24,000 bases of DNA from Bacteroidales bacterium (GTDB lineage Bacteria > Bacteroidota > Bacteroidia > Bacteroidales > G963667975), in the NCBI GenBank assembly GCA_963677395.2, contig OY781965.2, positions 1,124,056 through 1,148,055 on the forward strand, written 5' to 3'. The notes beneath the pieces were generated by a model that was not told where the DNA came from, searched no databases, and worked only from the letters and a program-made list of their open reading frames with translations. The translations under genes and the position numbers were made by a program. Positions 8,861-24,000 of the stretch are shown piece by piece; the stretch's first letter is position 1, and each line of letters begins with the position of its first letter.

Positions 8861-8930
8861 AAAATAAAATACAATATTTCCTAATTATTACCACTTAATA
8901 GGTGTTGTCTGGTTTTAAATAAAGAATTGT

Positions 8931-8961: not shown

Positions 8962-9045
8962 TACCAGATTGCTAACTTTTGCAGTTTTAGATGAATCGCA
9001 GCGATCTTTCCTGTCATGCTTCAAAATAACGATAGTATTTTTTAT

Positions 9046-9053
9046 TATTTTTG
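9046..9053 (+). promoter_or_regulatory. Candidate -7 box TATTTTTG for xdhC-family gene
   Basis: Perfect TAnnTTTG on the plus strand, about 115 nt upstream of ATG 9169. The surrounding sequence TATTTTTGCTTC is identical to the promoter at 19737-19748 read on the minus strand. Confidence 0.45.
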
Positions 9054-9168
9054 CTTCGTTTGAAATTTACAGGCTGGTTGTTTTAGGGCGTTGAGTCATG
9101 AGAATCAGTGTAATTGATATTAAATACAGGCTGTAATGGATATTTATAATTAATTAAAACTATGTTTA

Positions 9169-9939: not shown

Positions 9940-9949
9940 AATTTGAGCA

Positions 9950-10540
9950 CTAGAATGTACTGTTGAAAAAGCTTGTGTATTCCTCAGGTGTATTAATATT
10001 TCTTAAAATAGTATCGGAATTTATTTCAATATCCATTTTTGGATAAGGCGTTAATATATCACGTAGAGTAAAGTTATTATCATTTAACTGAGATATTTTA
10101 TTAATGATAACTTGTGGTAAAAGAACAGGATGCCCGCCTTTTCCTTTATAAACAGGCGAACACCACGCGTAAGGATTTCTTTGTGCATAAAGTTTTTCAA
10201 TAACATCAATACTTACGAAAGGATTATCAACGTTTTGAATAAAACAGAAATCGCTTTCTTTTGCTTCCTGTGAAGCTATTCTGATTGAATAAAATCGTCC
10301 CCATTCGGGATACTCATTAATTACAAATGTTACATTTGGTTGTACTTGTAAGTCACGACATAAGGGTTCTGTTTTCTTATTAACCATACAAATAATTTTA
10401 CTGCAATCAGCACTTGTATATTCATTAATAATTTTTTCCAGAAATGTTGTAGTATCATCCCATTTAAGAAGAGCTTTTGGTTTTCCCATTCTTTCTGAAA
10501 AGCCTGATGCGAGTATTATTGTTATAGAATTGCGATCCAT
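9950..10540 (-). CDS. MobA/MocA-like nucleotidyltransferase (probable Moco cytidylyl/guanylyl-transferase; DVU_1551-type)
   Basis: 196 aa. The N-terminal motif IILASGFSERMGKPKALL matches the MobA-like NTP-transferase signature LAgG.S.RMG..Kall. Confidence 0.8.
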   Translation of the reverse strand: MDRNSITIILASGFSERMGKPKALLKWDDTTTFLEKIINEYTSADCSKIICMVNKKTEPLCRDLQVQPNVTFVINEYPEWGRFYSIRIASQEAKESDFCFIQNVDNPFVSIDVIEKLYAQRNPYAWCSPVYKGKGGHPVLLPQVIINKISQLNDNNFTLRDILTPYPKMDIEINSDTILRNINTPEEYTSFFNSTF

Positions 10541-10590
10541 TTTGTATTTTTTGCGAGATTATATAAAATAATTATCAATGCAATAGATTT

Positions 10591-11823: not shown

Positions 11824-12461
11824 CACTTGTTTTGTGTATTCTTTTTTGCTACGATAAGATAATAACCACATTTTATGCGTTTCATAGCATCAGGATTTAT
11901 GCCTAATTCGCAATAGAAAGATTTTGCTCCTTTATCAAAAATCATTTGCCCCCACATTGCTTTAAGATGAGTAGAAAAATCTTCAAAAAGCTCTATGGTA
12001 AAACCTTTATTTTCGAGCAGAAGGATAATATTTTCTTTTGTATCAACTCGCCCCAGACAGCCCGTTAAATGCGTTGCTTCGCCACGTGCATATATATCTG
12101 AAATCATCAAATGACCATCCGTTTTCAAAACACGATGGCACTCTTTCAATACCGTTTCCTGATTATTGACTACAGAAAAACTGCATTCCATTAGAATCCC
12201 ATTAAAAGACACATTAGGAAACGGTATCTTTTCAGCCGAAGCTTTTAAGATGTTTGGATTCGACGACTCCTCATTCGGATCAAGTCCCAAAGCTTCTAAA
12301 CCATAATTTTTAACGATATGATCAATTGTAGAACCAAATCCACAACCCAAATCAAGAATTTTCGCATGCGTTGGAAAAGAACAGAAACGAAGGGCTCTAT
12401 CTGTTATGATAAAACCTCCGGGACGGTTTACGATACAACTTACGTTATTTACTGATCCCAT
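11823..12461 (-). CDS. Class I SAM-dependent methyltransferase (DVU_1556-type)
   Basis: SAM-binding motif I is ILDLGCGFGS, followed by a later HLMISD acidic loop. The start in the ORF track (12482) is a TTG. The first ATG is 12461 (MGSVNN..) and overlaps the radical SAM stop by 13 nt. Confidence 0.8.
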   Translation of the reverse strand: MGSVNNVSCIVNRPGGFIITDRALRFCSFPTHAKILDLGCGFGSTIDHIVKNYGLEALGLDPNEESSNPNILKASAEKIPFPNVSFNGILMECSFSVVNNQETVLKECHRVLKTDGHLMISDIYARGEATHLTGCLGRVDTKENIILLLENKGFTIELFEDFSTHLKAMWGQMIFDKGAKSFYCELGINPDAMKRIKCGYYLIVAKKNTQNK

Positions 12462-13750
12462 CCTGTAAGATAATGTGAACAAAAAGTGACAATATTCCCG
12501 TTATCGTAGACATGCAGACTGCATTTTCGAAGTCGGGAAAAATCAATATTTCCAGCATCCTGAAAAGCCATTGAAGTAACGGTAAAACCGTGTGTTTTTG
12601 AACGTTTTAGGAAATATTCCATATCATGAATATCTCCGTAACCTGGATCTTCACCAACATTTTCCACCAGTGGTCTTTCCCATCGTTTTGCAACGAAATT
12701 CCTGTTCATATCGGCCGGAGATGAATCACAACAGCATTTTTTCTCCATTCTTCCCCGTTTTAACAGCGGAAATAAGCTATTCTGTTCTACAATAAAATCT
12801 CCATGAAATCCACACAATGGATGATCACAGGCTGAAGGAAGTAAATTCTCAGTTTTAATCAACCCACCCGATTGCTTATTGATTTCATAAACCAATTCAT
12901 CGAGGGTGATACGTTCATTATCAGTCGGTATTTTGGGCACACGTCCCATATATGTTGCTGGTTGAAAATGCACTCCACGAACTTTAGGCGATTCGGAAAT
13001 AGCAAACTTGATGATGTCTCCAATGTTATGCATATTTACGCCACGAACCAATGTTGGGACAAGGGTTACTCCAATATTATAAACAGCGCAATTTTCAATT
13101 GCTTGTTGTTTTATTTTCAGGAGTGATTTTCCACGGATACTTTTATAAATTGCATCTTCTGTACCGTCAAATTGCATAAAAACGAATGATAGTCCAGCTT
13201 CAGCAAGCTTTTTCACAAGCTGTAGATCTTCACCCAACCGAACTCCATTGGAATTAAGCTGCACATATTTTGCACCCGCTTCTTTCGCCACTTTGATAAT
13301 TTCGGGAAGATCCTCGCGGATTGTTGGTTCGCCACCACTTAGCTGAATCAGGGTTTTATCTTTTTCTATGATGCGAACAAGCGATGCCTTGATCTCTTCA
13401 AACGAAGGCTCTTCTTTGCTGTCGCACTGGTCGGCCAAACAAAAGTTGCAATTTAGATTACAGATGTTCGTAATATTCAATACCACACAACATGTTTTCT
13501 GAAGATGATCCGAGCATAACCCACATCCGTCGGGGCATTTTGGATTGTCGAGCGGAATTACATCCGAATCCCTAATCCACTCATCAATATCAGAAAACCC
13601 GCGCCAAATAATAGTTTCGAAATCACCATGTTCATCGCATGTTTTTTTCAAAAAAACTTCTTTCCCAACCTGTACACGTTCAGCGGGCAGACGTTTCATG
13701 CAAACAGGACAAACACTCCATGTCTTAAAAAGAACTGTTGGTTCTTTCAT
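12449..13750 (-). CDS. Radical SAM enzyme with N-terminal Cys-rich zinc-ribbon-like segment (TrsS-like, Cys form)
   Basis: 433 aa. The canonical CX3CX2C motif is present in ITNICNLNCNFCLA. The N-terminus has CPVC..(17)..CDEHG. The C-terminal region is Cys-rich (KKCCCDSS, LRKCSLHVY, FCSHY). I saw no in-frame TGA. Confidence 0.9.
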   Translation of the reverse strand: MKEPTVLFKTWSVCPVCMKRLPAERVQVGKEVFLKKTCDEHGDFETIIWRGFSDIDEWIRDSDVIPLDNPKCPDGCGLCSDHLQKTCCVVLNITNICNLNCNFCLADQCDSKEEPSFEEIKASLVRIIEKDKTLIQLSGGEPTIREDLPEIIKVAKEAGAKYVQLNSNGVRLGEDLQLVKKLAEAGLSFVFMQFDGTEDAIYKSIRGKSLLKIKQQAIENCAVYNIGVTLVPTLVRGVNMHNIGDIIKFAISESPKVRGVHFQPATYMGRVPKIPTDNERITLDELVYEINKQSGGLIKTENLLPSACDHPLCGFHGDFIVEQNSLFPLLKRGRMEKKCCCDSSPADMNRNFVAKRWERPLVENVGEDPGYGDIHDMEYFLKRSKTHGFTVTSMAFQDAGNIDFSRLRKCSLHVYDNGNIVTFCSHYLTGWDQ

Positions 13751-13751
13751 C

Positions 13752-13946
13752 TTATTTATCCTCCATTTGCATCTCGACTTCCGAAATGCGACCTTTTACA
13801 AGCTCTTCGGAGATGTAAACCAAGCCACATTGAGGACACTTTGGCAAGTCGGTGAAGAAACTATAACCGAGATAAGTAAAATCAGTTTTTTTAAGTACTA
13901 ACTCCTTATCACATTTGCCACAAATGAGTTTCTTTTTTTCGGACAT
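13752..13946 (-). CDS. 64-aa CxxC...CxxC zinc-ribbon/rubredoxin-like small protein (DVU_1557-type)
   Basis: The sequence is MSEKKKLICGKCDKE...LPKCPQCGLVY.., with two CxxC pairs about 30 residues apart. Its ATG directly abuts the upstream stop, and its own stop is 1 nt before the radical SAM ATG. Confidence 0.65.
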   Translation of the reverse strand: MSEKKKLICGKCDKELVLKKTDFTYLGYSFFTDLPKCPQCGLVYISEELVKGRISEVEMQMEDK

Positions 13947-16190
13947 TTATACCTCCTCTATTTTCATACGGTGACTGTACGCATTTATCAGTTCAAATTG
14001 ATTTTTTTGTTTAATCCGATATTCCACCCAGTAAGTAGCGTTACCTATTTGCATATATCCTGTGAATGTTTCATCTTCAGGGTCAAACAGTTTGCTTCCG
14101 CTTTGTTCACAATTTTTAATTACAGCACAGACATCTGTTTCCAAAATATACTTCTTGTTTAGCTTTTCTTTAAGCTCTTGTGAAATAACCACTTCAAAAT
14201 CAGGTTTTCCCATTGTTTTCTCTTCCTTCCAAAACTCTTTAAGCAATTGTGCTTTCAACTGAATTCGATTTTCTCTTCGCTCTGAAATGGTTGGCAAAGG
14301 ACTATTTTCGTTATCCAAATCAAAAATAATATCAAAAATATGCCATGTTCTTTTCTTTGCAGAAACGAAGGTATCACGGCAATTTGAACAATATGTGATG
14401 TATGGATTATCATTTTGTTCAACCCTTTTTTTTGCCGAATGTTCTACATAAGGTGGATATGCAATAGCTACTTGACCACCATAACTGCAACATTCGGCAA
14501 GTTTTCCTTCCATTGGCAGAGACTCAAGGTTAAACCCCGCTTTAGTTGCCAATGTACGAATAGATTTTTGCAATTCAGGCTCATGACGACTTGAGCAGGG
14601 GTCGAATACAGAAGCTATTTCTACTTTACTTTTATTAAAGAGGTGACTTCCTTTTTCTTCAATGATGTTATAAATAAATAGCCCTTCAATTTCGGGTAAA
14701 AACCGTTGAAACATCTGTTTACAGGTAGGACATGCGAAAATAGCTATTGGTTTCCCAAGATTCATCCAATCATCCTTGATCTTTTCAAGGGTTTTGTTGT
14801 GATTTTCCACATCTCCGGCCCAATCAGCAGGAGCACCACAGCAATTCAGCATTAATGCGATGTCTGGAAAGTGTTTTGTCAGGAATTTATAACTTTCGGT
14901 TACGTAACGAGGGTCAGAAGCACCAAGTTGGCAACCGGGAAAAAACATATATTGACTTTTATCATGTCCTTGTGCAGTCTTTGCAAGTGCAGCTTCATTG
15001 TTCGAAAATTCCATATCTCTCATATAGAATTCATGGAATGCCCATGGCATGGCGACTTTTTGATGCATCGCCTGCATACTTACCCGTAAAAATTCACCCG
15101 TATCAATATCTTTAGGGCAAACTTCTTTACATAATCCACAATGATTACAGGTGGAAATAAGTCTTGTGCAAACAGTTCCGTTCCCGTCTAAAGTACTGGG
15201 TCGTATTGTTACCTCAACTTCATCCGCAAAACGCTTGGGGTATTTCTTAAAATAGTTCATTAGCGGAGAGAAGTGAACACAAGCATCACAAGCACACTTA
15301 AGACAACGATTGGCTTCTGCTATCGACTCTTCTTTTGTGTATGTTTTTCCATCCAATGGCATTACTGTTTCGGCTTTAATTACCCGAATGGCATCGTGAA
15401 GCAATTTGGTGCCTTTAACTTCTACAGGATGATTCATGTAATTAGTCTTCAGGAATCTTTCTATTGCAACAGAAACCTGTAAGCCTTGAGCAATTGCATG
15501 CATGGTATCCGCACCAGTGATGGAACCACCGATAAAAACACCCTCTTTATTGCTGGCAAATGCCCCTTCATTGCCCTGAATAAGTCCAAAATCATTTCCA
15601 TCTTTCCCTGTGGCAACATAAATTGCATCAAAGTTTAAATCATCCAAATTTGTCACTTCAGTATTGAGCAAAAGAGTGTAGTTTTCGTGTGAAAACTGCT
15701 TATCAATATCCGCCAAAAATATTCCTGTGTCAAGCAGGTTATAAAGATGCCCCCCAATTCGATCCGATTTTTCGAAAATCGTTACCGCATATTTTTTTGT
15801 GGTCAACCGAAGAGCGCATGCAAGACCACTGATACCGCCACCGATTATCGCAATTCGTTTATCTTTTGGTGGCATATTGTATTGATCCGGTTCTGTATTT
15901 CGGGCAAAGTTCATCGAAGCTATTTCAAGTTGCATCATTGAAATCGAACCACCCGCCTCTTTCATAGGACAAACTATTTTGCACGGCTCGTTACACAAAG
16001 CAGAAACAATGCCCGGAAAACCTACTGTATTTTGATATGTTTTGTATGCTACATTAAAACGACCTTGCTGTATCTTGCCAATAAAGTCACGAACATCAAG
16101 GCTGAACGGGCATTCAGCTGTGCAAAATGCCCGTTCGTTTTGTAAACATTCAGAAATAAATTCATTATTTGATTCCATAAATGTGATCAT
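13947..16190 (-). CDS. Multidomain oxidoreductase: GltD-like Fe-S N-terminus, FAD/NAD(P) Rossmann domain, 2x[4Fe-4S] ferredoxin domain, two CCG (HdrD/GlpC-like) Cys-rich domains and an unknown C-terminal domain
   Basis: 747 aa. Motifs, in order:
- C..AECPF and CNEPCKIVCP
- the dinucleotide fold RIAIIGGGISGLACALRL
- CLKCACDACVHF and CNHCGLCKEVCP
- CCG-type motifs FPGCQL, LNCCGAP, FACPTC, DPCSSRH and ECCSYGG. Confidence 0.9.
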   Translation of the reverse strand: MITFMESNNEFISECLQNERAFCTAECPFSLDVRDFIGKIQQGRFNVAYKTYQNTVGFPGIVSALCNEPCKIVCPMKEAGGSISMMQLEIASMNFARNTEPDQYNMPPKDKRIAIIGGGISGLACALRLTTKKYAVTIFEKSDRIGGHLYNLLDTGIFLADIDKQFSHENYTLLLNTEVTNLDDLNFDAIYVATGKDGNDFGLIQGNEGAFASNKEGVFIGGSITGADTMHAIAQGLQVSVAIERFLKTNYMNHPVEVKGTKLLHDAIRVIKAETVMPLDGKTYTKEESIAEANRCLKCACDACVHFSPLMNYFKKYPKRFADEVEVTIRPSTLDGNGTVCTRLISTCNHCGLCKEVCPKDIDTGEFLRVSMQAMHQKVAMPWAFHEFYMRDMEFSNNEAALAKTAQGHDKSQYMFFPGCQLGASDPRYVTESYKFLTKHFPDIALMLNCCGAPADWAGDVENHNKTLEKIKDDWMNLGKPIAIFACPTCKQMFQRFLPEIEGLFIYNIIEEKGSHLFNKSKVEIASVFDPCSSRHEPELQKSIRTLATKAGFNLESLPMEGKLAECCSYGGQVAIAYPPYVEHSAKKRVEQNDNPYITYCSNCRDTFVSAKKRTWHIFDIIFDLDNENSPLPTISERRENRIQLKAQLLKEFWKEEKTMGKPDFEVVISQELKEKLNKKYILETDVCAVIKNCEQSGSKLFDPEDETFTGYMQIGNATYWVEYRIKQKNQFELINAYSHRMKIEEV

Positions 16191-16193
16191 CTA

Positions 16194-19115
16194 CTAAAAG
16201 AATCTTTCTCCTTCGGCACCACCAAGAGGTTTGAAGAAATCGATTCCACCGTAAGGAACCGGATTTGCTTTAATATCTTCGAGTTCATCATATAAATCAG
16301 CACCGAGGAAATATTTCTTTGGCGGCATGATTTTGCCTCCAGTAGCTAAAATATCAAGACCTTCTTTTACTTTTTCTTTGGTAGCCGGCATTTCGAAGAC
16401 CCTAACACCACAAGCATTGTAAATAGCATTCAACACCGCAACGTGTCCTGAGGCTTGGAATGCTTCTGATGCTCCAGATGAACCAAATGGGCCAGTTTTA
16501 TCGTATGTTTCATTATAGATAACTTTAATTTCATCTGGAATATCTTTAATATAAGGGACTCCACTGCTTGCAATATTCGTGTGTTTTGTAACATCTTCAT
16601 AATTTTCAGATAATGCAAAGCCAATGCTGTGAGAAATTCCGCCATAAGCTTGTCCGTTAACGGCATCGATGTTACCAATCTTACCAACATCAGCAATACA
16701 AATGAATCTGGTTACTGTTGTTTTTCCGGTTTTTGTATTCACAGCAACTTCAGCCATATTAAGAGCATACGTGAATGCAGGAGTTGGATCACCAATACCA
16801 GTATTTGGGTCAAGACGGCTTAATCCTTCTGTTACGATAGTCATATATTTGCCTTCGTATTTAGTTGGAATTCCTTCTTTTACCATTTCATCATAAGTTC
16901 TGTATGTGCCGTCATCTTTTTTCATTGCTTTCATTAATTTTTCGGCAGCAATAATGGTAGCATGACCATTCATATAATGCGAACGGCTACCAGCAGACAT
17001 ACCGCTATCGGGACAAATTTTAGTATCACTTTGAACAAGTTTAATTTGTCCAGGAGTAATTACGAGTGGTTTCAGTGCTTCCAATGTGACCATTACAGAG
17101 CCTATATCGCCACCTTGACCTAGTTCTTGCCAAGTGTCATACTTTGTAAATGTTCCGTCAGGATTTAATTCCAGATGTATTGTTGCGTGATCAGTAGCAC
17201 CTTCGGTTACGTTAAAACCACCCCATGCAATACCAACACCACGGCGAACTTCGGGAGTATCTTTTTCTTGAGCTTCTTTAACTGCCTGATTGTAAAATGG
17301 TTTGAGTTTGTTCATCATTTCTTCCATCGGATAAAGTCTGAACTTACAACTGTTAAGGTTTGTTTCTCCTTCACGGGCAATGTTTCTCCATCTGAATTCG
17401 AATGGGTCGATACCAGCCTTTTCAGCTAACATATCCATTAGTGCTTCACTTAATGTGAAAGCTTGTGGAGAACCGTAACTTCTGTAAGCTGTACCAAAGT
17501 TGTGATTGGTGGCTGCAATGCGTGAAATACCGGCTACGTTAGGCACATAGTATGGGAAGAAAGCAAAGCGAACTTGTTTTGTAATGATATCATCACCACC
17601 AAATGTATAGCAACCTTGATCCATTCCAAATTCAAATTCAGTAGCTGTTATTTTGCCATCTTTATCGCAGGAAACACGTCCATTGGAGTGACAAGGACGA
17701 CGTTTTCCACTGAAATGTTGATGTTCTTCATAGGTCATTGATAATGCAACTGGCATTTTAGTAATAACGGTAGCAGCAGCAGCAAGGCAAAGGTCTCCAG
17801 CATTTGTTGACCAACCAAAACTAGCGCCTGTTGGGTTCATGATAATTCTGATCTTATCTTTAGGAATACCAACTGAATTTCCGATACGGCCAATTGAAGA
17901 GTATACACCTTGTGATTTGCATTGAATTGCCAACATTCCGTCTTCATCAAAATAAGATTGAACAGTGTCACCTTCTATTGATAAGTGTGGCTCACGTGTT
18001 GCGAAAAAGCTTCCTTCGGCACTAAAAGCAGAATTGTCAATTACTTCAGCAACTTTTGATGGGTCATCAAGGCCAACACCTTTTAACACTGGTTGCATGG
18101 CGAAAATATTCGGAGTGTTTGCGTGAATGTTCATTGCATCAGGCATTGCAGCATCAAGATAACCCAAGTATTCTGGAAGTTTTTCAATTTCCACTTTAAC
18201 TTTGGCAGCAGCTTCACGTGCATGGTCTTTTGTATCGGCACAAACAAGCGCAACAACGTCACCATATCTGTATATTTTATCATCACAAAGAACTTTACGG
18301 CTAGGAACCATAACTTTAGTACGTTCGTGGAAGTGACCTTCGGCCATGATGTTTGTACCACCAGCAGCTCTAATATCATCAGCTGTAATGACTTTTACAA
18401 CACCCGGCATTTTTTTGGCTTCAGTGGTGTCTATTTTTAATATTTTAGCATGATGAGCAAGTTTTGGTTGTACCATCACAACTTTAAGGCTTTCAGCAGG
18501 CATTTTTAACTCTTGGTCATCGCCATAATCAGCTAAACCACACACTTTTGCAAGAGCAGTAGGACGAACAACACGTTTGCCATAATATTCGCCGTCTGTA
18601 GGGTTTTTAAATTTAATATCATCTAACTTTTTTTCTCCGCGCATAACAGCTGCAGCAGCCATTACAGCATCAACAATCTGCACATAACCTGTACAACGGC
18701 AAACGTTACGATGCTTTTGGAACCAATCGCGTACTTCTTCCCGAGTTGGATTTGTATTTTCTAACAGTAAAGCATATGTTGAAACGATGAATCCAGGCAC
18801 ACAAAAACCACATTGAACAGCACCAAGCTCCATCCATGCTACTTGAATAGGATGAAGATTTGTTGGAGTACCAATACCTTCAATGGTTAGTATTTCACTA
18901 TATTCGTCAACAGAGCGAATCTTCTTAGCACATGAACGGATTAATTTTCCATTCACAATAATTGAACAAGAGCCACATACACCTTTGTTGCATCCTACTT
19001 TGGTTCCGGTTAATCCCATACGACGAACCACATCGGCTAAAGTATCCTTTTCGGGATTGCAAATAACCATGCGGTTTGCTCCATTGATATTCAGCCATAT
19101 TTTTCTTAGATTCAT
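16194..19115 (-). CDS. Molybdopterin-dependent aldehyde oxidoreductase, MOP type (two [2Fe-2S] clusters plus Mo-cofactor domains, no FAD domain)
   Basis: 973 aa. The plant-type 2Fe-2S motif is GCNKGVCGSCSIIVNG. The second 2Fe-2S motif is QCGFCVPGFIVS...CRCTGY. There are long stretches collinear with Desulfovibrio gigas MOP as I remember it (LHP.Q.AW...GA.QCGFC.PGFIVS; REEVRDWFQKHRN.CRCTGY; FDxLAEKxGxDPxExR). The catalytic-Glu region is GPFGSSGASEAF. Confidence 0.95.
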   Translation of the reverse strand: MNLRKIWLNINGANRMVICNPEKDTLADVVRRMGLTGTKVGCNKGVCGSCSIIVNGKLIRSCAKKIRSVDEYSEILTIEGIGTPTNLHPIQVAWMELGAVQCGFCVPGFIVSTYALLLENTNPTREEVRDWFQKHRNVCRCTGYVQIVDAVMAAAAVMRGEKKLDDIKFKNPTDGEYYGKRVVRPTALAKVCGLADYGDDQELKMPAESLKVVMVQPKLAHHAKILKIDTTEAKKMPGVVKVITADDIRAAGGTNIMAEGHFHERTKVMVPSRKVLCDDKIYRYGDVVALVCADTKDHAREAAAKVKVEIEKLPEYLGYLDAAMPDAMNIHANTPNIFAMQPVLKGVGLDDPSKVAEVIDNSAFSAEGSFFATREPHLSIEGDTVQSYFDEDGMLAIQCKSQGVYSSIGRIGNSVGIPKDKIRIIMNPTGASFGWSTNAGDLCLAAAATVITKMPVALSMTYEEHQHFSGKRRPCHSNGRVSCDKDGKITATEFEFGMDQGCYTFGGDDIITKQVRFAFFPYYVPNVAGISRIAATNHNFGTAYRSYGSPQAFTLSEALMDMLAEKAGIDPFEFRWRNIAREGETNLNSCKFRLYPMEEMMNKLKPFYNQAVKEAQEKDTPEVRRGVGIAWGGFNVTEGATDHATIHLELNPDGTFTKYDTWQELGQGGDIGSVMVTLEALKPLVITPGQIKLVQSDTKICPDSGMSAGSRSHYMNGHATIIAAEKLMKAMKKDDGTYRTYDEMVKEGIPTKYEGKYMTIVTEGLSRLDPNTGIGDPTPAFTYALNMAEVAVNTKTGKTTVTRFICIADVGKIGNIDAVNGQAYGGISHSIGFALSENYEDVTKHTNIASSGVPYIKDIPDEIKVIYNETYDKTGPFGSSGASEAFQASGHVAVLNAIYNACGVRVFEMPATKEKVKEGLDILATGGKIMPPKKYFLGADLYDELEDIKANPVPYGGIDFFKPLGGAEGERFF

Positions 19116-19150
19116 AAATGTTTCTCCTATTGGTTGTTAAATTTATATAA

Positions 19151-19591
19151 TTATAATTCTTCTTCAAGAAAAGAGACTACTGTTTCAAGAAATTTCGGAC
19201 AAGTTTTGTAGAAAACAGGAAGCTTTATCATTAAGTCAGCTCCACTTAAATTGCTTCTGTCAAACCCAACTAATTCATTGCAAATGCTTGTGTTATGTGC
19301 TTTTTCAAATGTTTGGATAAGTTCTCTGGTTTTCTCACGTGACATTTTTTTAGCTTCTAAATCAGTTGCTTTCGTTGTCCCGTATTTAAGCCCAATAACC
19401 ATCATGGCACCCGTAAGTGCACCACATGTTCTCCCATATCCGCCAAACCCCCCACCAAAAGGACAAGCAATCTTAAGAGCTGTTTCGCGAGATAGTTCCA
19501 TTTCTTTACTAAAAGTTGCTAATACTGCTTGAGAACAGTGATAACCTGATGTGAATAATTCTAATGCTTCTGCAACTCTGTCTTTAACCAT
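19151..19591 (-). CDS. C_GCAxxG_C_C family putative redox-active protein (DVU_1555-type)
   Basis: Family-defining cysteines are present: YHCSQAVL, CPFGGGFG, RTCGALTGA and TSICNELV. The start in the ORF track at 19600 is a TTG. The first ATG (MVKDRV..) is at 19591. Confidence 0.8.
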   Translation of the reverse strand: MVKDRVAEALELFTSGYHCSQAVLATFSKEMELSRETALKIACPFGGGFGGYGRTCGALTGAMMVIGLKYGTTKATDLEAKKMSREKTRELIQTFEKAHNTSICNELVGFDRSNLSGADLMIKLPVFYKTCPKFLETVVSFLEEEL

Positions 19592-19712
19592 AAGCTTCAA
19601 ATATATTTATTATGGAGATGATTAAATTATTATCATATATTCTTAATTAGAAATCAATTAATAATAGCATACAATACTTGAAACTTAAGTTTAGGATGAC
19701 TTGATAATAAAT

Positions 19713-19748
19713 GGATATGTGAAATTTTACATATCGGAAGCAAAAATA
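19713..19748 (-). promoter_or_regulatory. Promoter -7 box TATTTTTG (19748..19741) plus palindromic element GATATG-N10-CATATC (19714-19735)
   Basis: Perfect TAnnTTTG on the minus strand. Five nt downstream is an inverted repeat, GATATGT-N8-ACATATC. The spacing and half-sites are the same as at 8825-8860. It lies about 115-150 nt upstream of the first gene of the aldehyde oxidoreductase operon. Confidence 0.55.
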
Positions 19749-19878
19749 AAAATAATTATACAATAATCCAATCTCTTAAATGGCTTTATATAGTCGCTCC
19801 TTAAAATTTATATAGTTGCCTCTTGTTAATAATATAATCGATTGGTTGTTAATAAATTAATTCAATATTTTTGTGTTT

Positions 19879-19960: not shown

Positions 19961-22900
19961 TTATTTGACAAGGGTTACTATTCCTTTTTTCTCAATAGTT
20001 TTGCCACTTCCGGCAAATGTTATTCGCATATAATAAACATAAACACCGGATTGAACCATCTCATTTTTATAAGTTCCATCCCAGCCTATATCAAAATTGG
20101 TTGTTTCGAAAATCATCTGCCCCCAACGATTATAAATTGCCATATAATAATCGGCATAAGCAGTAATGTTTCCAACTGGTTTGAAAATTTTATTAACTCC
20201 GGCAGGAACAAAAGCATTGGGAATATAAAGAGTATTACAGTTCTCAATATTTACCATAATGCTATCACTCTCTATACAATTATTTACATTTACATTAACC
20301 CAATATAAACCAGAATTATAAACCATAAAAATTGCATTTTTCGATCCGTCTTGCCAATAATAGGTTGCATTGGGAGCTGTGGCATTTAATAAAACCGGAG
20401 TGCCTTCACAAATACTTGTGTCATTTCCCAGATTCACATATGGATATTGATTAACCGTAAGATTGCAAATTATTATACTGTCGCATCCATAAGTAGAAGA
20501 AAGAGTATCGGAATAAATTCCGGAACTATTGATAATTTGATTTCCAAACTGATAATTTTCCCCTTGGCATATGGAAGGATTTATAGTTGTTGTCTTTATA
20601 GGATTCACCGTTAGATATGTAATAACAATACTGTCACAACCTGCATTTGAAATTAAAGTATCTTTATAAACCCCAGAATTCAGATAATAATGATTGCCAA
20701 TAAAAAAAGTATCACCTTGACAAATTGTAGGATTTAATGTATCAAAAGAAATTGGTTTCGTATATACAACAACGCTATCGCAAACAGAAGTATCGCACTG
20801 ACTTTCCCAACGAGCATAATATGTTGTGGTTTGAGTTGGAGAAGCTATCGTTAACGGACTATTTATTCCAATCATATTTAGACCGCATCCTCCTGAAAAC
20901 CATCGCAAAGTATCTCCAATTCCGCCAATAGCTGTTAATGTTATATTCCCATTATCATTAGAACAAAAGTTATTTCGGTCAGTATGTACGGTAGTTGGTT
21001 TTAAAGTATTGCACGGACTTATTTTGAGAATAAAGCTATCATCTTCTCCGTTCCATGAATTATCATAATAAGCTCCATTGCCGTAATCTATTGTATAGCT
21101 GTTTGCACCATTCCACTCTCCGATAAAATAAACTGCATTTTGATGATCAACAGTGATGGCGGTGCCCCAGTCGTTTCCGAATTCTCCATAATATGTTGCC
21201 CATTGTCTTACACCCTGATTGTTGAATTTTAAAATATAATTATCAATAATACCTGCAAGATTGGGTTGCCAGTATTCATTTTGCAATTGTTGTGTCGGGA
21301 AGTTTGATGACATTGTTCCTCCTGTAATATAAAGATTATCTTGTAAATCAATATTTGAAATTACTGTCATTGCACCTTCATTATTACTGCCTCCATAATA
21401 AGTTGCCCACAATCTGACTCCTTGGTTGTTGAATTTAAGAATAAACAAATCAAAATCACCGGCATTGGCGGGTTGGTTATAAGCCCCAGTAAGTGTTTGT
21501 ATAGGGAAATTAGCCGAAAATGTTCTTCCGGTAACAAAAATATTATTTTGACTGTCGGCAACAACAGAATTGGCATTGTCGCCGGGATCTCCTCCATAAT
21601 AGGTTGCCCACTGTCGTACTCCCTGAGGGTTAAATTTTACGATAAAAGCATTAGTGTTTCCTGCATTACCAGCTTGCCAATAAGCTCCCGACATTTGTTG
21701 TGTGGGAAAATTCTGTGAGAAAGTTCCTCCGACAAAGTATAAATTATTTAAATGGTCAACACAAATAGAATAACCCATATCGTAATCATCCCCGCCATAA
21801 TACGTTGCCCATTGCCTTACTCCTTGATTTGAAAACTTCAGAATAAACGAATCAAAATCGCCGCCAGAACTTGCCTGCCAATATGCATTTGTAAGCTGTA
21901 GAACTGGCAAATTACTTGAATTGCAGTAGCCGGTAATATAAATTTGATTCAGGCTGTTGCAGGCAATAGAGCTGGGAAATTCATTATAAGTCCCGCCATA
22001 ATACGTTGCCCATAACCTTACGCCTTGGGAATTAAACTTTAAAATACAACCATCGGATGCACCTCCAAAACTTTGCTGATTATATGCATTTATAGCACTT
22101 TGAGTAGGAAAGTTCGATGAATAAGAATATCCTATAACAAATAAATTATTTTGATTATCGACCACAGCATCGCTGGCCATATCAACCTGTCCACCACCGT
22201 AAAAAGTTGCCCAAATCCTTACTCCTTGATTATTAAACTTAATAATTGTTATATCATTTGAAGCAACTATACTGCTTTGCCAGAAAGCAGCATTCATATA
22301 CAAAGTAGGAAAATCAGAAGTTGTTGCATAACCTACAACGTAAATATTGTCCAGACTATCCGTGCAGATTGAGGTAAAACCATCATAGCTGGTACTTCCT
22401 CCGTAATATGTCGCCCAAATCAACGGATCTATAACTAAAGTCTTGGTTTTATCATAGTCAGCAATGTCAAATGAAATTACCGATTCTTTATCTATCGTAA
22501 ATTTACTTTGTATATTATGACTGATGTCTGATATATACGACAAAAGATTGCCTTCTTCAATAGTGCCCGCGATAGTTTTAATTTTTAACTTGGTATCATT
22601 ATCAGTCAGAGTTGTTCTTTTAACATTCACATATTTTATCTTAATATCCTTATAATCAGCTTTGGGGTGTACGATAAAATCATATTTCAATGGATGTTTT
22701 TTGGAGTTTGGGTTGGTGTAAATTACCCAATCAATTCCTTTATAGATATTTTTAATGGTTATTTTTCCATAACCTTTTACATTATAAATGCCGTTGGGGC
22801 AATGGGCATAAAAGTAATTGTAATATCCCTGTCTGCTTTCTTCTTCCTTGATAATGTTTGTTTTATCAATATTCGCACCTTCCAGATTCATATCCATGCG

Positions 22901-23269
22901 GTAGTAAGAAACCTTCCTGTTTTCTTCTTCCTCTTTTTCAAAATCCTTAAAATTTTTAGCTTTGTTCTTGTTTTTTCTTTCTTCAAACTCCTCTTCTTCA
23001 TTTTTAGTAAACTTCACAAAAACATAGCTTAAACCTCTGTTAGTAATATAAATATTGCAATTTCCATAGGAAGCTTTAAACAAAACTTCATCGGCAGCTT
23101 TTCCATCAGTTTTTGTTAGCTGCCCTTTGTTCTCAATGAACTCAATTGGTTTATTTCTAAGAAATTCCATAGCTTTCGCTTCGGTAATTTTATCTGCATT
23201 ATTTTTACTACTGGCATATAAAGAAGAAGTAATAATGCATAAAAGAAGTACAATGATTATCTTGTTCAT
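19961..23269 (-). CDS. Large secreted SBBP beta-propeller repeat protein with Cys-rich Ig-like modules and a T9SS type-B (gliding-motility CHU_C) C-terminal sorting domain
   Basis: 1102 aa. Elements, in order:
- signal peptide MNKIIIVLLLCIITSSLYA
- FIENKGQ motif
- seven blades carrying GVR.WATYYGG...N.Y..G.T.S.NFPT
- three CxGD/E...GxY.DTL.S..GCDSI..L.LTVN modules
- C-terminus LYIPNAFVPAGVNKIFKP...YNRWGQMIFET...WDG......SGVYVYY, which is typical of the type-B sorting domain. Confidence 0.9.
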   Translation of the reverse strand: MNKIIIVLLLCIITSSLYASSKNNADKITEAKAMEFLRNKPIEFIENKGQLTKTDGKAADEVLFKASYGNCNIYITNRGLSYVFVKFTKNEEEEFEERKNKNKAKNFKDFEKEEEENRKVSYYRMDMNLEGANIDKTNIIKEEESRQGYYNYFYAHCPNGIYNVKGYGKITIKNIYKGIDWVIYTNPNSKKHPLKYDFIVHPKADYKDIKIKYVNVKRTTLTDNDTKLKIKTIAGTIEEGNLLSYISDISHNIQSKFTIDKESVISFDIADYDKTKTLVIDPLIWATYYGGSTSYDGFTSICTDSLDNIYVVGYATTSDFPTLYMNAAFWQSSIVASNDITIIKFNNQGVRIWATFYGGGQVDMASDAVVDNQNNLFVIGYSYSSNFPTQSAINAYNQQSFGGASDGCILKFNSQGVRLWATYYGGTYNEFPSSIACNSLNQIYITGYCNSSNLPVLQLTNAYWQASSGGDFDSFILKFSNQGVRQWATYYGGDDYDMGYSICVDHLNNLYFVGGTFSQNFPTQQMSGAYWQAGNAGNTNAFIVKFNPQGVRQWATYYGGDPGDNANSVVADSQNNIFVTGRTFSANFPIQTLTGAYNQPANAGDFDLFILKFNNQGVRLWATYYGGSNNEGAMTVISNIDLQDNLYITGGTMSSNFPTQQLQNEYWQPNLAGIIDNYILKFNNQGVRQWATYYGEFGNDWGTAITVDHQNAVYFIGEWNGANSYTIDYGNGAYYDNSWNGEDDSFILKISPCNTLKPTTVHTDRNNFCSNDNGNITLTAIGGIGDTLRWFSGGCGLNMIGINSPLTIASPTQTTTYYARWESQCDTSVCDSVVVYTKPISFDTLNPTICQGDTFFIGNHYYLNSGVYKDTLISNAGCDSIVITYLTVNPIKTTTINPSICQGENYQFGNQIINSSGIYSDTLSSTYGCDSIIICNLTVNQYPYVNLGNDTSICEGTPVLLNATAPNATYYWQDGSKNAIFMVYNSGLYWVNVNVNNCIESDSIMVNIENCNTLYIPNAFVPAGVNKIFKPVGNITAYADYYMAIYNRWGQMIFETTNFDIGWDGTYKNEMVQSGVYVYYMRITFAGSGKTIEKKGIVTLVK
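21022..22423 (-). repeat. Seven tandem in-frame coding repeats of about 58-60 codons (SBBP propeller blades)
   Basis: The peptide core NQGVR(Q/L/I)WAT(Y/F)YGG recurs seven times in the 1102-aa ORF. Coordinates are converted from residues about 283-750. Confidence 0.8.
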
Positions 23270-23506: not shown

Positions 23507-23845
23507 CTATTTCCGATTATCTGTAGCCGGGCTAACAGTTCTGATTAATCCCGAGATCGGGACTCTAACCAACAGAGCTAAGGCGGCAGGAATATCATTT
23601 TTCAAAACCAAAGCTTCAATAAATGTTCTTGATTTTTGTTTTTTGATAAATTTTTCGATTTTCAAAGCAACACCCCAGTTTCCCTTAACTTCAAATAAAG
23701 CGACCATTATCCATGGCCGATGTTTTGAAGTGTATGTTGTTCTTTCAGAAGTGTTGTGTTCCGATAGCCTTCGTTCCGGATTCTCAGTTACTCCAACATA
23801 GTATTTGTCGGAATTAGAACTATAAAGAATATAGAGGAAATACAT
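23507..23845 (-). CDS. Small GIY-YIG nuclease-family protein; the last 30-35 codons are encoded by a duplicated tRNA-like segment
   Basis: The GIY-YIG core is YFLYILYSSNSDKYYVGVTENPERRLSEHN, followed by ..KIEKFIKKQKSRTFIEAL. Codons from about residue 80 onward lie in the 67-bp repeat 23540-23606. Confidence 0.85.
   Translation of the reverse strand: MYFLYILYSSNSDKYYVGVTENPERRLSEHNTSERTTYTSKHRPWIMVALFEVKGNWGVALKIEKFIKKQKSRTFIEALVLKNDIPAALALLVRVPISGLIRTVSPATDNRK
23540..23606 (-). repeat. Direct repeat copy 1 (67 bp, identical to 23934-24000)
   Basis: Base-by-base comparison of TCTGATTAATCCCGAGATCGGGACTCTAACCAACAGAGCTAAGGCGGCAGGAATATCATTTTTCAAA at both positions (offset 394 bp) shows identity. 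The match breaks on the left side at 23539 versus 23933. The right side is cut by the window end. Confidence 0.95.
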
Positions 23846-23863
23846 TGAGCGAATTTATAATAT

Positions 23864-23898
23864 GAAATAAAAACGAAAAAGGTCGCCACATGACGACC
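23864..23898 (-). terminator. Rho-independent terminator immediately 3' of the tRNA-like gene
   Basis: The minus strand reads GGTCGTC-ATGT-GGCGACC, a 7-bp stem including one G.U pair with a 4-nt loop (23898-23881). It is followed by TTTTTCGTTTTTATTTC. Confidence 0.7.
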
Positions 23899-23903
23899 TT
23901 TTG

Positions 23904-23981
23904 CTCCCCCTCTAGGACTTGAACCTAGGACCCTCTGATTAATCCCGAGATCGGGACTCTAACCAACAGAGCTAAGGCGGC
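23904..23981 (-). tRNA. Non-canonical tRNA-like gene or tRNA pseudogene/chimera (3' half of tRNA-Asn type)
   Basis: The minus strand reads GCCGCCT-TA-GCTC-TGTTGGTTA-GAGT-...-TCAGA-GGGTC-CTAGG-TTCAAGT-CCTAG-AGGGGGA-G.
- Canonical features: a good D-arm, a 5-nt variable loop, a perfect T-arm and a 3' acceptor strand followed by a terminator.
- Non-canonical features: the 5' acceptor strand pairs at only 5 of 7 positions, the D-to-variable interval is 4 nt too long, and no 5-bp/7-nt anticodon arm with U33 can be drawn. Confidence 0.4.
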
Positions 23982-24000
23982 AGGAATATCATTTTTCAAA
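23934..24000 (-). repeat. Direct repeat copy 2 (67 bp, truncated by the window end), forming the 5' two-thirds of the tRNA-like gene plus its upstream flank
   Basis: Identical to 23540-23606. Confidence 0.95.

What the first reader, a model, noticed from the sequence alone, without database searches (positions are those of the whole stretch)
23507..24000. GIY-YIG gene whose 3' end is an exact 67-bp copy of the 5' part of a neighbouring chimeric tRNA-like gene
Read on the minus strand the order is:
1. repeat copy 2 (24000..23934)
2. a unique tRNA 3' half (variable loop, perfect T-arm, acceptor strand AGGGGGA, discriminator G)
3. a strong terminator
4. the GIY-YIG ORF, whose last 30-35 codons are repeat copy 1 (23606..23540)
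5. unrelated sequence beginning ACTGTTAGCC

The repeat carries a good tRNA-like acceptor strand plus D-arm (GCCGCCT-TA-GCTC-TGTTGGTTA-GAGT). It also contains a CTCGGGA heptamer that looks like a CGG anticodon loop, and then TTAATCAGA, which looks like the 3' side of an Asn or Lys-type anticodon arm. The 5' strand does not match the 3' acceptor strand (5 of 7 pairs) and the molecule is 4 nt too long. It therefore looks like two tRNA parts joined in the anticodon region.

GIY-YIG enzymes include homing endonucleases. The picture fits endonuclease-associated duplication or insertion at a tRNA gene, or a tandem array of GIY-YIG plus repeat units continuing beyond the window. The 100% identity of the copies indicates a recent event or ongoing gene conversion.
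Basis: partly seen in the sequence, partly recalled or inferred. Interest (0 to 1): 0.6.

Follow-up and report, generated by a model that had tools for sequence, protein, structure and literature searches.

The report
Hairpin-nuclease cassette duplicated at tRNA-Asn
The "chimeric tRNA" is the seam between two tandem copies of a small nuclease gene cassette that sits beside the asparagine tRNA gene in many Bacteroidota; each copy ends in a tRNA-derived stretch whose anticodon arm is replaced by a conserved DNA hairpin, probably the nuclease's own recognition site.

Summary
There is an exact 67-nt direct repeat, spaced 394 nt, with its second copy cut by the window end. There is an intact 112-aa GIY-YIG ORF and a tRNA-like chimera that is not a valid tRNA (ARAGORN: none; Rfam 23.9 bits, threshold 29).

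A 98-99.5% identical relative has a normal tRNA-Asn(GTT) exactly where the window has the chimera. In 80 related Bacteroidota loci the layout recurs:
- promoter;
- 0-6 leader units;
- tRNA-Asn;
- a hairpin followed by a T-run;
- a 100-aa GIY-YIG ORF ending in tRNA D-arm-like DNA plus the hairpin TCCCG-N6-CGGGA;
- a copy of tRNA-Asn nt 35-76.

Tandem cassettes with periods of 373-456 nt occur in at least 10 loci, so the window most likely shows a junction between two such cassettes.

The hairpin shows covariation and nucleotide-level constraint, and it occurs only inside these cassettes. It shares the TCCCG...CGGGA core and the 5' GTC of the Neisseria NTS repeat, which is cut by Ssn, a single-domain GIY-YIG single-stranded-DNA nuclease (Chenal et al. 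2025).

Best reading: an Ssn-like nuclease/hairpin module tied to tRNA-Asn and recently duplicated here. That paper's main text mentions neither tRNA nor Bacteroidota, so I rate this a new variant of a known kind. The biochemistry and the DNA beyond 24000 remain unverified.

The parts
23934..24000 (-). Repeat copy 2. It is the 3' end of a further, upstream GIY-YIG ORF: 19 nt coding LKNDIP, then a D-arm-like stretch, the hairpin and TTAATCAGA. The window end truncates it.
   Evidence: It is 100% identical to 23540-23606. The first 19 nt are GIY-YIG coding sequence, not tRNA leader.
23943..23956 (-). Hairpin module TCCCGA-TC-TCGGGA, copy 2. It stands where tRNA nt ~26-34 would be.
   Evidence: The family-wide motif is TCCCG-N6-CGGGA, with covariation.
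23904..23942 (-). tRNA-Asn(GTT) 3' part, nt 35-76: TTAATCAGA, variable loop, T-arm, acceptor 3' strand and discriminator.
   Evidence: It is identical to the same part of the intact tRNA-Asn at L002:9869-9943. It lies inside the sub-threshold Rfam tRNA match at 23904-23981.
23877..23902 (-). Terminator-like hairpin followed by a T-run, between the tRNA 3' end and the nuclease ORF.
   Evidence: The same element follows the intact tRNA-Asn in L002, and an equivalent hairpin is present in relatives.
23507..23845 (-). GIY-YIG ORF, 112 aa, a single-domain Ssn/UPF0213/SLX1-like nuclease. The catalytic positions Y5, Y16, R26, H30 and E64 are present. The reading frame runs 16 codons past the family's usual TAA because the hairpin is 2 nt shorter here.
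23540..23606 (-). Repeat copy 1, codons ~80-102 of the ORF. It holds the D-arm-like stretch (23581-23563), the hairpin (23562-23549) and TTAATCAGA (23548-23540).
   Evidence: Third-codon positions of this block are conserved at 0.89, against 0.56 in the catalytic block.
23507..23539 (-). Unique sequence after copy 1 (ACTGTTAGCC...TAG). In this lineage the tRNA 3' part that normally follows the hairpin is missing after the last cassette.
   Evidence: The same truncation occurs in L004, the closest genome. Most other relatives keep the tRNA 3' part here.

Best explanation
The window shows the last one-and-a-bit units of a tandem duplication of a roughly 394-nt cassette that lives at the tRNA-Asn gene.

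What one cassette contains:
1. tRNA-Asn nt 35-76.
2. A terminator-like hairpin.
3. A small single-domain GIY-YIG nuclease gene.
4. The gene's own 3' end, which is a tRNA-Asn 5'-half-derived sequence. In it the segment from the end of the D-stem to anticodon nt 34 is replaced by a conserved hairpin, TCCCG-N(4-6)-CGGGA.

When two cassettes sit head to tail, the hairpin-bearing gene end of the first abuts the tRNA 3' part of the second. That junction is the non-functional 'chimeric tRNA'.

Shown:
- the anatomy of the cassette;
- its recurrence in many Bacteroidota;
- the hairpin's covariation;
- nucleotide-level constraint on the gene's 3' end;
- the copy-number difference from a near-identical strain.

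Inferred:
- The nuclease is an Ssn-type enzyme. It would bind this hairpin in single-stranded DNA and cut just 5' of it, as Neisseria SsnA does at its NTS repeat.
- The tRNA gene supplies the promoter and the direct repeats (D-arm on one side, nt 35-76 on the other). Recombination between these repeats, possibly stimulated by the nuclease, amplifies, deletes or spreads the cassette.
- A complete or nearly complete second gene copy, and an intact tRNA-Asn, lie just beyond position 24000.
For: Near-identical relative:
- L002 is 97.9-99.5% identical to the window and carries an intact tRNA-Asn followed by the same terminator, gene and tail.
- The window differs from it only upstream of TTAATCAGA.

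Survey of 80 genome loci:
- 61 of 72 loci with enough upstream DNA have tRNA-Asn(GTT) on the same strand within 200 nt of the gene. Four more have it further upstream, four have only its 3' part, and one has tRNA-His.
- 81 of 91 gene copies carry the hairpin in their 3' end.
- In 27 of 64 comparisons, the 40 nt after the hairpin equal the local tRNA-Asn nt 35 onward exactly.
- Tandem cassettes occur in at least 10 loci, for example four copies with a 402-nt period in L039.

Hairpin:
- 98% of cells are paired.
- Pair N1-N6 occurs as CG:23, AU:15, UA:14 and GC:6.
- No shuffle out of 500 reaches the observed covariation.
- Hairpins occur only inside the cassette region and not in the flanks, nor elsewhere in the window.
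- The leader and tail hairpins of one locus share the variable stem pairs in 17 of 25 loci, against 4.6 expected. Eight of these differ in the loop.

Coding tail:
- Third-codon conservation is 0.89, against 0.56 in the catalytic block.
- AlphaFold confidence falls from about 90 in the core to 74-38 in the tail.

Protein:
- It is single-domain, with invariant Y5, Y16 and E64. SsnA's active-site mutants are Y6, Y17 and E64 (PMC11893778).
- Its nearest solved relatives are UPF0213 proteins and SLX1, not I-TevI.

Resemblance to Ssn (PMC11893778):
- The NTS repeat is CGTCATTCCCGCG-MAV-GCGGGAATC. It shares the TCCCG...CGGGA core and the 5' GTC with our AGAGTCCCG-N6-CGGGATT.
- Ssn genes are typically flanked by their hairpins, 42% of them on both sides.

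Independent assembly: Logan unitig L001 starts exactly 30 nt (k-1) inside repeat copy 1. This is what a graph branch at TTAATCAGA|A versus |G would produce.
Against: - The DNA beyond 24000 could not be obtained. A full second gene copy and an upstream intact tRNA-Asn are therefore predictions.
- Placement of the protein in the Ssn clade (CDD cd10448) could not be tested, because no reference sequence was reachable.
- The published degenerate search pattern for Ssn-related motifs does not match this hairpin.
- The covarying stem leaves only a 2-nt centre, which is unusual for a hairpin and would also fit a double-stranded palindromic site.
- In this lineage the only sequence shared between the tRNA and the tail at the junction is 9 nt (TTAATCAGA). 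That is short for ordinary homologous recombination.
- A second Logan unitig (L088) breaks at a place that the simple two-copy model does not predict.
- No biochemical data exist for any member of this Bacteroidota group.
Confidence: 0.6

Rival explanations
1. Classical homing. The nuclease cuts the double-stranded, intact tRNA-Asn gene in the anticodon region. Repair from a cassette-bearing allele copies the cassette in between nt 34 and 35. The hairpin-substituted copy is simply the cleavage-immune version of the target.
For: - The insertion point is precise and is the same for tRNA-Asn and for the one tRNA-His locus (nt 34|35).
- The cassette is flanked by tRNA sequence that could serve as homology arms.
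- Close strains differ in copy number.
- Repeated insertion next to a regenerated target would give tandem arrays.
- A precedent exists: the T4 GIY-YIG endonuclease SegB acts in a tRNA cluster and drives segmental amplification (PMC13096335, abstract seen).
Against: - The protein has no DNA-binding domain, and its fold neighbours are SLX1 and UPF0213 proteins rather than I-TevI (Foldseek E 2.3).
- An 'immune scar' would not need a covarying stem that is kept across the family.
- It would not need to match between the leader and tail of one locus, nor to be re-inserted in T-loops and D-arms.
- The intact tRNA next to the gene would stay a target.
Confidence: 0.17
2. RNA-level element. The hairpin and the pseudo-tRNA parts act in the transcript, as processing, stability or decoy structures for the tRNA-Asn precursor and the nuclease mRNA, not as DNA sites.
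For: - Leader units lie between a Bacteroidetes-type promoter (TAnnTTTG) and the tRNA, so they are probably transcribed.
- The ORF starts 28-60 nt after the tRNA end in most loci, which leaves little room for its own promoter.
- The covariation is compatible with an RNA stem.
- Pedobacter units keep a second small hairpin with compensatory changes.
Against: - A 7-bp stem with a 2-nt loop is sterically poor for RNA. The N2-N5 pair is kept in 91% of distinct anticodon-position hairpins.
- No Rfam family matches.
- RNase P cleavage at the pseudo-tRNA would truncate the ORF.
- The characterised relative SsnA does not bind RNA.
Confidence: 0.1
3. Passive relic. An old duplication of tRNA-Asn trapped a GIY-YIG gene, and the pseudo-tRNA pieces are decaying remnants without present function. 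The window copy arose by chance slippage.
For: - Many pseudo-tRNA parts are visibly degenerate or truncated.
- The leader unit of the window's lineage is decaying.
- The window ORF has lost the family's normal stop.
Against: - The D-arm-plus-hairpin block is far more conserved than synonymous sites elsewhere in the gene.
- The hairpin shows compensatory changes.
- The architecture is kept across several orders of Bacteroidota and in more than 2000 protein clusters.
Confidence: 0.08
4. Assembly artefact: a repeat-induced mis-join or a duplicated contig end.
For: - Copy 2 touches the window end.
- Repeats of this kind break assemblies. Several related loci sit at contig ends, and Logan contigs stop at the repeat.
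Against: - A mis-join needs reads that link the hairpin to GGGTCC. The Logan unitig boundary exactly k-1 inside the repeat indicates that both continuations exist in run ERR12015701.
- The same tandem arrangement is assembled independently in many genomes, including long-read chromosomes.
Confidence: 0.04

Closest known systems
Ssn nucleases with NTS/SRM hairpin repeats (SsnA of Neisseria meningitidis; CDD cd10448; Chenal et al., Nat Commun 2025, PMC11893778)
   Same: - The protein is a single-domain GIY-YIG enzyme of about 94-100 aa with catalytic Tyr, Tyr and Glu at the same positions.
- The gene is flanked, often on both sides, by an oriented hairpin repeat.
- The hairpin core TCCCG...CGGGA is preceded by GTC.
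- Each locus has its own hairpin variant, which suggests enzyme/site pairs.
   Different: - Here the hairpins are not dispersed in hundreds of copies. They are confined to one locus type, tRNA-Asn.
- They are built into tRNA-derived sequence, replacing tRNA nt ~26-34.
- One copy lies inside the nuclease ORF and encodes its C-terminus (LAQLVRVPxxRD).
- The cassette forms tandem arrays.
- The published SRM search pattern does not match.
- The paper's main text mentions neither tRNA nor Bacteroidota.
- Clade membership and single-stranded-DNA activity are untested.
SegB, a free-standing GIY-YIG homing endonuclease in the phage T4 tRNA gene cluster (PMC13096335, abstract; earlier work recalled from my own knowledge)
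   Same: It is a GIY-YIG nuclease gene embedded among tRNA genes, and nuclease-linked segmental (tandem) amplification of the locus has been reported.
   Different: - SegB is a phage enzyme of the Seg/I-TevI type with a DNA-binding part that cuts double-stranded DNA.
- No hairpin module is involved and the ORF does not overlap tRNA-like DNA.
- Our motif is absent from viral contigs.
REP/BIME repeats with RAYT, and IS200/IS605 transposases (from my own knowledge and the discussion in PMC11893778)
   Same: A small enzyme gene is flanked by the hairpins it recognises in single-stranded DNA, and the hairpins multiply near the gene.
   Different: Those enzymes are HUH tyrosine transposases that form covalent intermediates. 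A GIY-YIG hydrolase cannot carry out strand transfer by itself. REPs are dispersed across the genome and are not tied to a tRNA gene.
Integrase-borne islands that insert into the 3' part of tRNA genes
   Same: A direct repeat of the tRNA 3' part flanks the inserted DNA, and the tRNA stays intact. tRNA-Asn is also used this way in relatives (L004/L084, L005, L024).
   Different: The cassette is only about 390 nt long and carries no recombinase. The repeat starts at anticodon nt 35, and the second copy is fused to the nuclease gene through the hairpin.

Membership tests
Ssn site-specific single-stranded-DNA nucleases (cd10448) with SRM hairpins | Single-domain GIY-YIG protein of about 90-150 aa with no extra DNA-binding domain | tested here: met
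   The proteins are 100 aa in the family and 112 aa in the window. Only Pfam GIY-YIG matches, at residues 1-73. The AlphaFold model shows one compact domain, residues 1-82.
Ssn site-specific single-stranded-DNA nucleases (cd10448) with SRM hairpins | Conserved catalytic Tyr, Tyr and Glu (Y6, Y17, E64 in SsnA) | tested here: met
   Y5, Y16 and E64, together with R26, H30 and N31, are invariant in 23 aligned members including the window copy. The SsnA residues are taken from PMC11893778.
Ssn site-specific single-stranded-DNA nucleases (cd10448) with SRM hairpins | Phylogenetic placement in the cd10448 clade | not testable with these tools
   No CDD model or SsnA reference sequence was available. 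The nearest solved proteins are UPF0213 (E 3e-9) and SLX1. NCBIfam and PADLOC gave nothing specific.
Ssn site-specific single-stranded-DNA nucleases (cd10448) with SRM hairpins | Oriented 20-50-nt hairpin-forming repeat next to the gene, often on both sides | tested here: met
   The hairpin is in the 3' end of 81 of 91 gene copies. At least one further copy lies upstream in 36 of 72 loci. All copies are on the gene's strand, and the stem shows covariation.
Ssn site-specific single-stranded-DNA nucleases (cd10448) with SRM hairpins | Match to the published degenerate SRM pattern HGTCWY...RNCYNB | tested here: not met
   The pattern gave no match in the window or in any locus, although it does match the NTS control. 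The first mismatch is the base after GTC (C here, W in the pattern), and relaxing that position alone still gave no match.
Ssn site-specific single-stranded-DNA nucleases (cd10448) with SRM hairpins | Binds and cuts only single-stranded DNA, on one strand, a few nt 5' of the hairpin | not testable with these tools
   This needs biochemistry.
Free-standing GIY-YIG homing endonucleases (I-TevI/Seg type) | GIY-YIG domain joined to a DNA-binding domain, with similarity to I-TevI-like enzymes | tested here: not met
   There is no second domain. The I-TevI catalytic domain matches only at Foldseek E 2.3. TIGR01453 scores 16.7 bits against a cut-off of 56.
Free-standing GIY-YIG homing endonucleases (I-TevI/Seg type) | Presence/absence polymorphism at a conserved target between close relatives | tested here: inconclusive
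   The window has an extra cassette junction where L002 has an intact tRNA-Asn. The cassette itself is present in both, and no empty-site allele was examined.
Functional tRNA | Cloverleaf with a 7-bp acceptor stem and a 7-nt anticodon loop, and a score above detector thresholds | tested here: not met
   ARAGORN finds none. Rfam gives 23.9 bits against a threshold of 29, with two non-pairs in the acceptor stem and an 8-nt insert in the anticodon region.
Integrase-mediated tRNA-targeting genomic islands | A recombinase gene inside the element bounded by the tRNA repeat | tested here: not met
   The 394-nt unit holds only the GIY-YIG ORF.

The most novel reading that the evidence does not exclude
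A large Bacteroidota clade of Ssn-type nucleases has become tied to the tRNA-Asn gene (once to tRNA-His).
- Its recognition hairpin overwrites the anticodon arm of tRNA gene copies at nt 34|35.
- The tRNA-derived DNA serves at once as promoter context, as recombination arms, as part of the extended hairpin, and as the last 12 codons of the nuclease.
- The module multiplies as tandem cassettes and as arrays of hairpin-bearing tRNA 5' halves in the tRNA leader.

This would be a self-propagating or domesticated element of a kind not described for Ssn or for tRNA genes.
Probability: 0.45. Interest if true: 0.75.

Novelty: new variant of a known kind. Interest (0 to 1): 0.62.

Why it matters
Ssn nucleases were described only in 2025. 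Outside Neisseria their biology, and the reason their hairpins flank the gene, remain open.

This locus type gives a compact natural system for studying them:
- It has one gene, one hairpin type per locus and an essential tRNA gene as host.
- Enzyme/site pairing, hairpin spread and nuclease-linked tandem amplification can be read directly from genomes and tested with a 100-aa protein and short oligonucleotides.

It also explains a common annotation oddity. These Bacteroidota 'GIY-YIG nuclease family' proteins end in LAQLVRVP..RD because they are read through tRNA-like DNA. It further explains pseudo-tRNA fragments and contig breaks next to tRNA-Asn.

If the many hairpin variants correspond to distinct specificities, they would add to the pool of candidate programmable single-stranded-DNA cutters.

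Tried and rejected
Attempts to see beyond position 24000 all failed:
- The exact GIY-YIG protein is not on record.
- Neighbouring proteins returned only a 6.6-kb Logan contig that stops inside the repeat, while a contig of more than 1 Mb was listed but not delivered.
- The adenosine-kinase (PfkB) route returned the relative L002 again and a 1.2-kb Logan unitig. A 4.18-Mb contig on record was not delivered.
- Scans of genome contigs with the 48-nt tail and of metagenome contigs with the junction and with a lineage-specific hairpin pattern found nothing.

Other searches that gave nothing specific:
- Rfam found nothing except tRNA.
- The hairpin motif has no hit in viral contigs.
- Phage BLAST hit only tRNA-like stretches.
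- Plasmid tblastn gave three distant GIY-YIG genes.
- NCBIfam and PADLOC gave nothing specific.
- Literature searches for GIY-YIG with tRNA-Asn or Bacteroidetes found no description of this arrangement. The Ssn paper turned up through.
- A profile search meant to reach distant, named relatives for a link to SsnA listed only the same subfamily.

Readings considered and rejected:
- A CGG anticodon loop. It is the hairpin's 3' arm.
- A generic dispersed REP-like repeat. The hairpins are confined to the cassette.
- A functional odd tRNA.
- Using L004 for a dN/dS test. Read by eye from the sequence printed, its copy has a 1-nt frame problem near the start.
Full report
**1. What is in the window**

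Read on the minus strand from 24000, the sequence runs as follows:
- 19 nt of GIY-YIG coding sequence (TTTGAAAAATGATATTCCT);
- a tRNA-like acceptor and D-arm stretch (GCCGCCT-TA-GCTC-TGTTGGTTA-GAG);
- a 14-nt hairpin, TCCCGA-TC-TCGGGA (23956-23943);
- TTAATCAGA, then a perfect variable loop, T-arm and acceptor 3' strand, ending at 23904;
- a terminator-like hairpin at 23902-23877;
- a 112-aa ORF at 23845-23507.

The 67 nt at 24000-23934 recur exactly at 23606-23540 inside that ORF. The spacing is 394 nt and none is expected by chance.

The ORF is a GIY-YIG domain protein (Pfam 1.1e-16).

ARAGORN finds no tRNA in the whole window. The Rfam tRNA model scores the chimera at 23.9 bits, below the 29-bit threshold, with two broken acceptor pairs and an over-long anticodon region.

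The repeat covers codons about 80-102 rather than the last 30-35 codons. The 'CTCGGGA anticodon loop' is one arm of a hairpin.

**2. What the chimera replaces**

A JGI metagenome contig (L002) is 97.9-99.5% identical to the window over the shared parts. At the position of the chimera it has a normal tRNA-Asn(GTT) at L002:9869-9943.

Downstream of TTAATCAGA the two sequences match except for a few substitutions: the tRNA 3' part, the terminator, the GIY-YIG gene, its tail and the unique sequence ACTGTTAGCC. Upstream of TTAATCAGA the window has the gene's own 3' end instead of tRNA nt 1-34.

The junction therefore lies between anticodon nt 34 and 35. The difference between the two strains is recent.

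**3. The arrangement is a family trait**

Homologues are typically 100 aa and end in a nearly invariant LAQLVRVPxxRD. That peptide is the translation of TTAGCTCAGTTGGTTAGAGTCCCG-N6-CGGGATTAA, which is a tRNA D-arm followed by a hairpin. The stop codon lies inside ATTAATC.

Eighty loci from species-representative genomes were fetched. All but three are labelled Bacteroidota or one of its lineages: Pedobacter, Chitinophagaceae, Bacteroidales, Cyclobacteriaceae, Chryseobacterium and others. Counts are as follows:
- Of 72 loci with at least 250 nt of upstream DNA, 61 have tRNA-Asn(GTT) on the same strand within 200 nt of the gene. Four have it further upstream, four have only its 3' part, and one (L077) has tRNA-His.
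- 81 of 91 gene copies carry the hairpin in the tail.
- In 27 of 64 comparisons, the 40 nt after the hairpin are identical to the local tRNA-Asn from nt 35 onward. This includes lineage-specific T-arm and anticodon-stem variants.
- Ten loci hold two or more full tandem gene copies, and others hold partial copies. Periods are 373-456 nt, and L039 has four units of 402 nt.

The window's 394-nt spacing and its junction (tail, then tRNA nt 35-76, then terminator, then gene) are exactly those of such arrays.

In the tRNA-His locus the hairpin is joined to the tRNA at the same place: GGGA|TGATTCTGA, after nt 34.

**4. Leader arrays**

Half of the loci (36 of 72) also carry one to six units between a Bacteroidetes-type promoter and the genuine tRNA-Asn. 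Each unit contains:
- the host tRNA's own nt 1-25;
- the hairpin;
- TTAATCAGAGGG;
- a purine-rich spacer.

The units repeat with periods of 74-113 nt. L002 and the closest complete genome (L084) keep one decaying unit of this kind upstream of tRNA-Asn.

**5. The hairpin is a constrained element, specific to these cassettes**

On 63 distinct sequences, the seven proposed pairs are formed in 98% of cells. Pair N1-N6 occurs as CG:23, AU:15, UA:14 and GC:6, and pair N2-N5 as AU:50, CG:5 and UA:3. No shuffle out of 500 reaches the observed covariation, and slid registers collapse. The two central bases pair only at chance level (24%).

In 56 loci with full flanks, the strict motif occurs 143 times, almost all between positions 1200 and 2800. 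It is essentially absent from the remaining 2.8 kb per locus. In the window it occurs only in the two repeat copies.

Third-codon positions in the LAQLVRVP block are 0.89 conserved, against 0.56 in the catalytic TYTSKHRPW block. The gene's tail is therefore constrained as nucleic acid. In the AlphaFold model, confidence drops from about 90 in the core (residues 1-82) to 74-38 in the tail.

Within a locus, the leader and tail hairpins share the variable stem pairs in 17 of 25 cases, against 4.6 ± 1.8 expected. Eight of these have different central bases. This is what enzyme/site pairing or local gene conversion would give.

**6. What kind of nuclease**

The profile of the family hits only UPF0213 proteins (1ywl, 1zg2; E about 1e-9) and SLX1 among solved structures. 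Foldseek gives SLX1-lineage enzymes first and I-TevI only at E 2.3. There is no second domain.

A paper found describes the Ssn family (Chenal et al. 2025, PMC11893778):
- Ssn proteins are single-domain GIY-YIG proteins of about 94 aa (CDD cd10448).
- They bind an oriented hairpin repeat only as single-stranded DNA and cut a few nucleotides 5' of it.
- The Neisseria repeat (NTS) is CGTCATTCCCGCG-MAV-GCGGGAATC.
- The GTC 5' of the palindrome matters for cutting.
- 71% of ssn homologues have such hairpins nearby, and 42% have them on both sides.
- The active-site mutants are Y6A, Y17A and E64A.

Our module, AGAGTCCCG-N6-CGGGATT, shares the TCCCG...CGGGA core and the 5' GTC. Our invariant residues are Y5, Y16 and E64. 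Hairpins lie on both sides of the gene.

Two caveats apply. The paper's degenerate search pattern does not match our module, and I could not test cd10448 membership. The paper's main text contains neither 'tRNA' nor 'Bacteroid'.

**7. How it most likely works**

Shown: the anatomy of the cassette, its linkage to tRNA-Asn, the tandem arrays, the constraint on the hairpin, and the copy-number difference between close strains.

Inferred:
- The nuclease recognises its hairpin in single-stranded DNA.
- Because the hairpin is embedded in tRNA-Asn-derived DNA, every cassette is bounded by direct repeats of tRNA sequence. Recombination or template switching between these repeats, possibly triggered by nuclease cuts, adds or removes whole cassettes.
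- In the window lineage the last cassette has lost the tRNA 3' part, so only TTAATCAGA (9 nt) is shared at the junction. That favours a site-directed or microhomology event over ordinary recombination.
- Folding as DNA suggests that once nt 26-34 are replaced, the D-loop TGGTTA can pair with TAATCA of the anticodon loop and stem. This extends the hairpin to about 14 bp and is a possible reason why tRNA-Asn is the host.
- The ORF begins 28-60 nt after the tRNA end in most loci, so it is probably expressed by read-through from the tRNA promoter.

**8. Rivals**

- A classical homing endonuclease that cuts duplex tRNA-Asn DNA would explain the precise nt 34|35 junction and the arrays. It fits poorly with the domain-less SLX1/UPF0213-like protein and with a covarying, locus-matched hairpin.
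- An RNA-level role fits the leader position of the units. It fits poorly with a 2-nt loop, and the ORF overlaps the pseudo-tRNA.
- Passive decay is contradicted by the conservation statistics.
- An assembly artefact is unlikely. The Logan unitig L001 from run ERR12015701 starts exactly 30 nt (k-1) inside copy 1, as expected if both continuations of TTAATCAGA exist in the reads. The same layout is also assembled in many independent genomes.

**9. Limits**

- The DNA beyond 24000 was not obtainable.
- A second Logan unitig from the PfkB side stops just before the decayed leader unit, which the simple two-copy model does not predict.
- The hairpin module also appears inside the T-loops, D-arms and acceptor ends of the pseudo-tRNAs (55 of 200 instances). 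This looks like repeated copying of the module by an unknown route.

**10. Verdict**

The finding is real, and its tandem-array reading is probably right. The chimeric tRNA is a by-product, not a gene.

The underlying system is best filed as an Ssn-like nuclease/hairpin module with a previously undescribed, tRNA-embedded architecture. I rate it a new variant of a known kind and of moderate to high interest.

Noticed in passing
L014:2256-2360, L059:1768-1880, L035, L042, L045, L013, L016, L061, L075:1709/1807, L058:1579, L007:2330: The 16-nt hairpin module TCCCG-N6-CGGGA is also found inside the T-loops, D-arms and acceptor 3' ends of the pseudo-tRNAs, and nested within another module in L073 and L077. 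It looks as if it is copied or inserted repeatedly. These cases account for 55 of 200 instances.
   Followed up: partly
L037:1534-1872, L020:1532-1864, L070:1438-1883, L080:1750-1860: Pedobacter leader units (111-113 nt) carry a second small conserved hairpin, xxCAAAGGATTTTGxx, with compensatory stem changes (GATCAAA.., CCAAA.., GTCAAA..). Its function is unknown.
   Followed up: no
window 6277-19874: This 13.6-kb segment is absent from the otherwise 98-99.5% identical contig L002. It encodes a xanthine-dehydrogenase-family molybdenum hydroxylase, XdhC, a MobA-like transferase, a radical SAM protein, a methyltransferase, DUF364 and an NTPase. It is a strain-variable metabolic island.
   Followed up: partly
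L004:1500-1900 and L084:1-3800 (contig OY764079.1): In the closest complete genome, about 60 kb lies between the intact tRNA-Asn next to PfkB and a partial tRNA-Asn copy (from CTGACTGTTAATC...) that precedes the GIY-YIG cassette. The segment carries Replic_Relax and TraG/TrwB-like genes at one end and what looks, by eye, like an integrase N-terminus at the other. It is a classical island integrated into the same tRNA. L005 and L024 show similar partial tRNA copies.
   Followed up: partly
L004:1986-2003: Read by eye from the sequence printed, the GIY-YIG copy of the closest genome has a 1-nt frame shift between its ATG and the conserved YILY motif. It is either a pseudogene or a homopolymer error of the assembly.
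   Followed up: no
L088:1-30 (Logan run ERR12015701), equivalent to L002:~9763-9792: The unitig from the PfkB side ends at ...acaacaaataaaatt, just before the decayed leader unit. This suggests another branch or repeat boundary in that sample, which the two-copy model does not explain.
   Followed up: no
window 19961-23269 (-): This 1102-aa protein has DUF7948, SBBP-like repeats and a CHU_C (type IX secretion) C-terminal domain. It lies immediately downstream of the cassette.
   Followed up: no
L031:334-386: A Flavo-1 RNA (RF01705) match just above its gathering score (44.4 against 42 bits) lies about 1.1 kb upstream of the tRNA-Asn array in Pedobacter chitinilyticus.
   Followed up: no
L002:8664-9659 and L003:1805-2725: An adenosine/ribokinase-family (PfkB) gene lies divergently next to the tRNA-Asn/GIY-YIG locus both in the window's Bacteroidales lineage and in Pedobacter zeae. 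This neighbourhood is conserved across orders.
   Followed up: no
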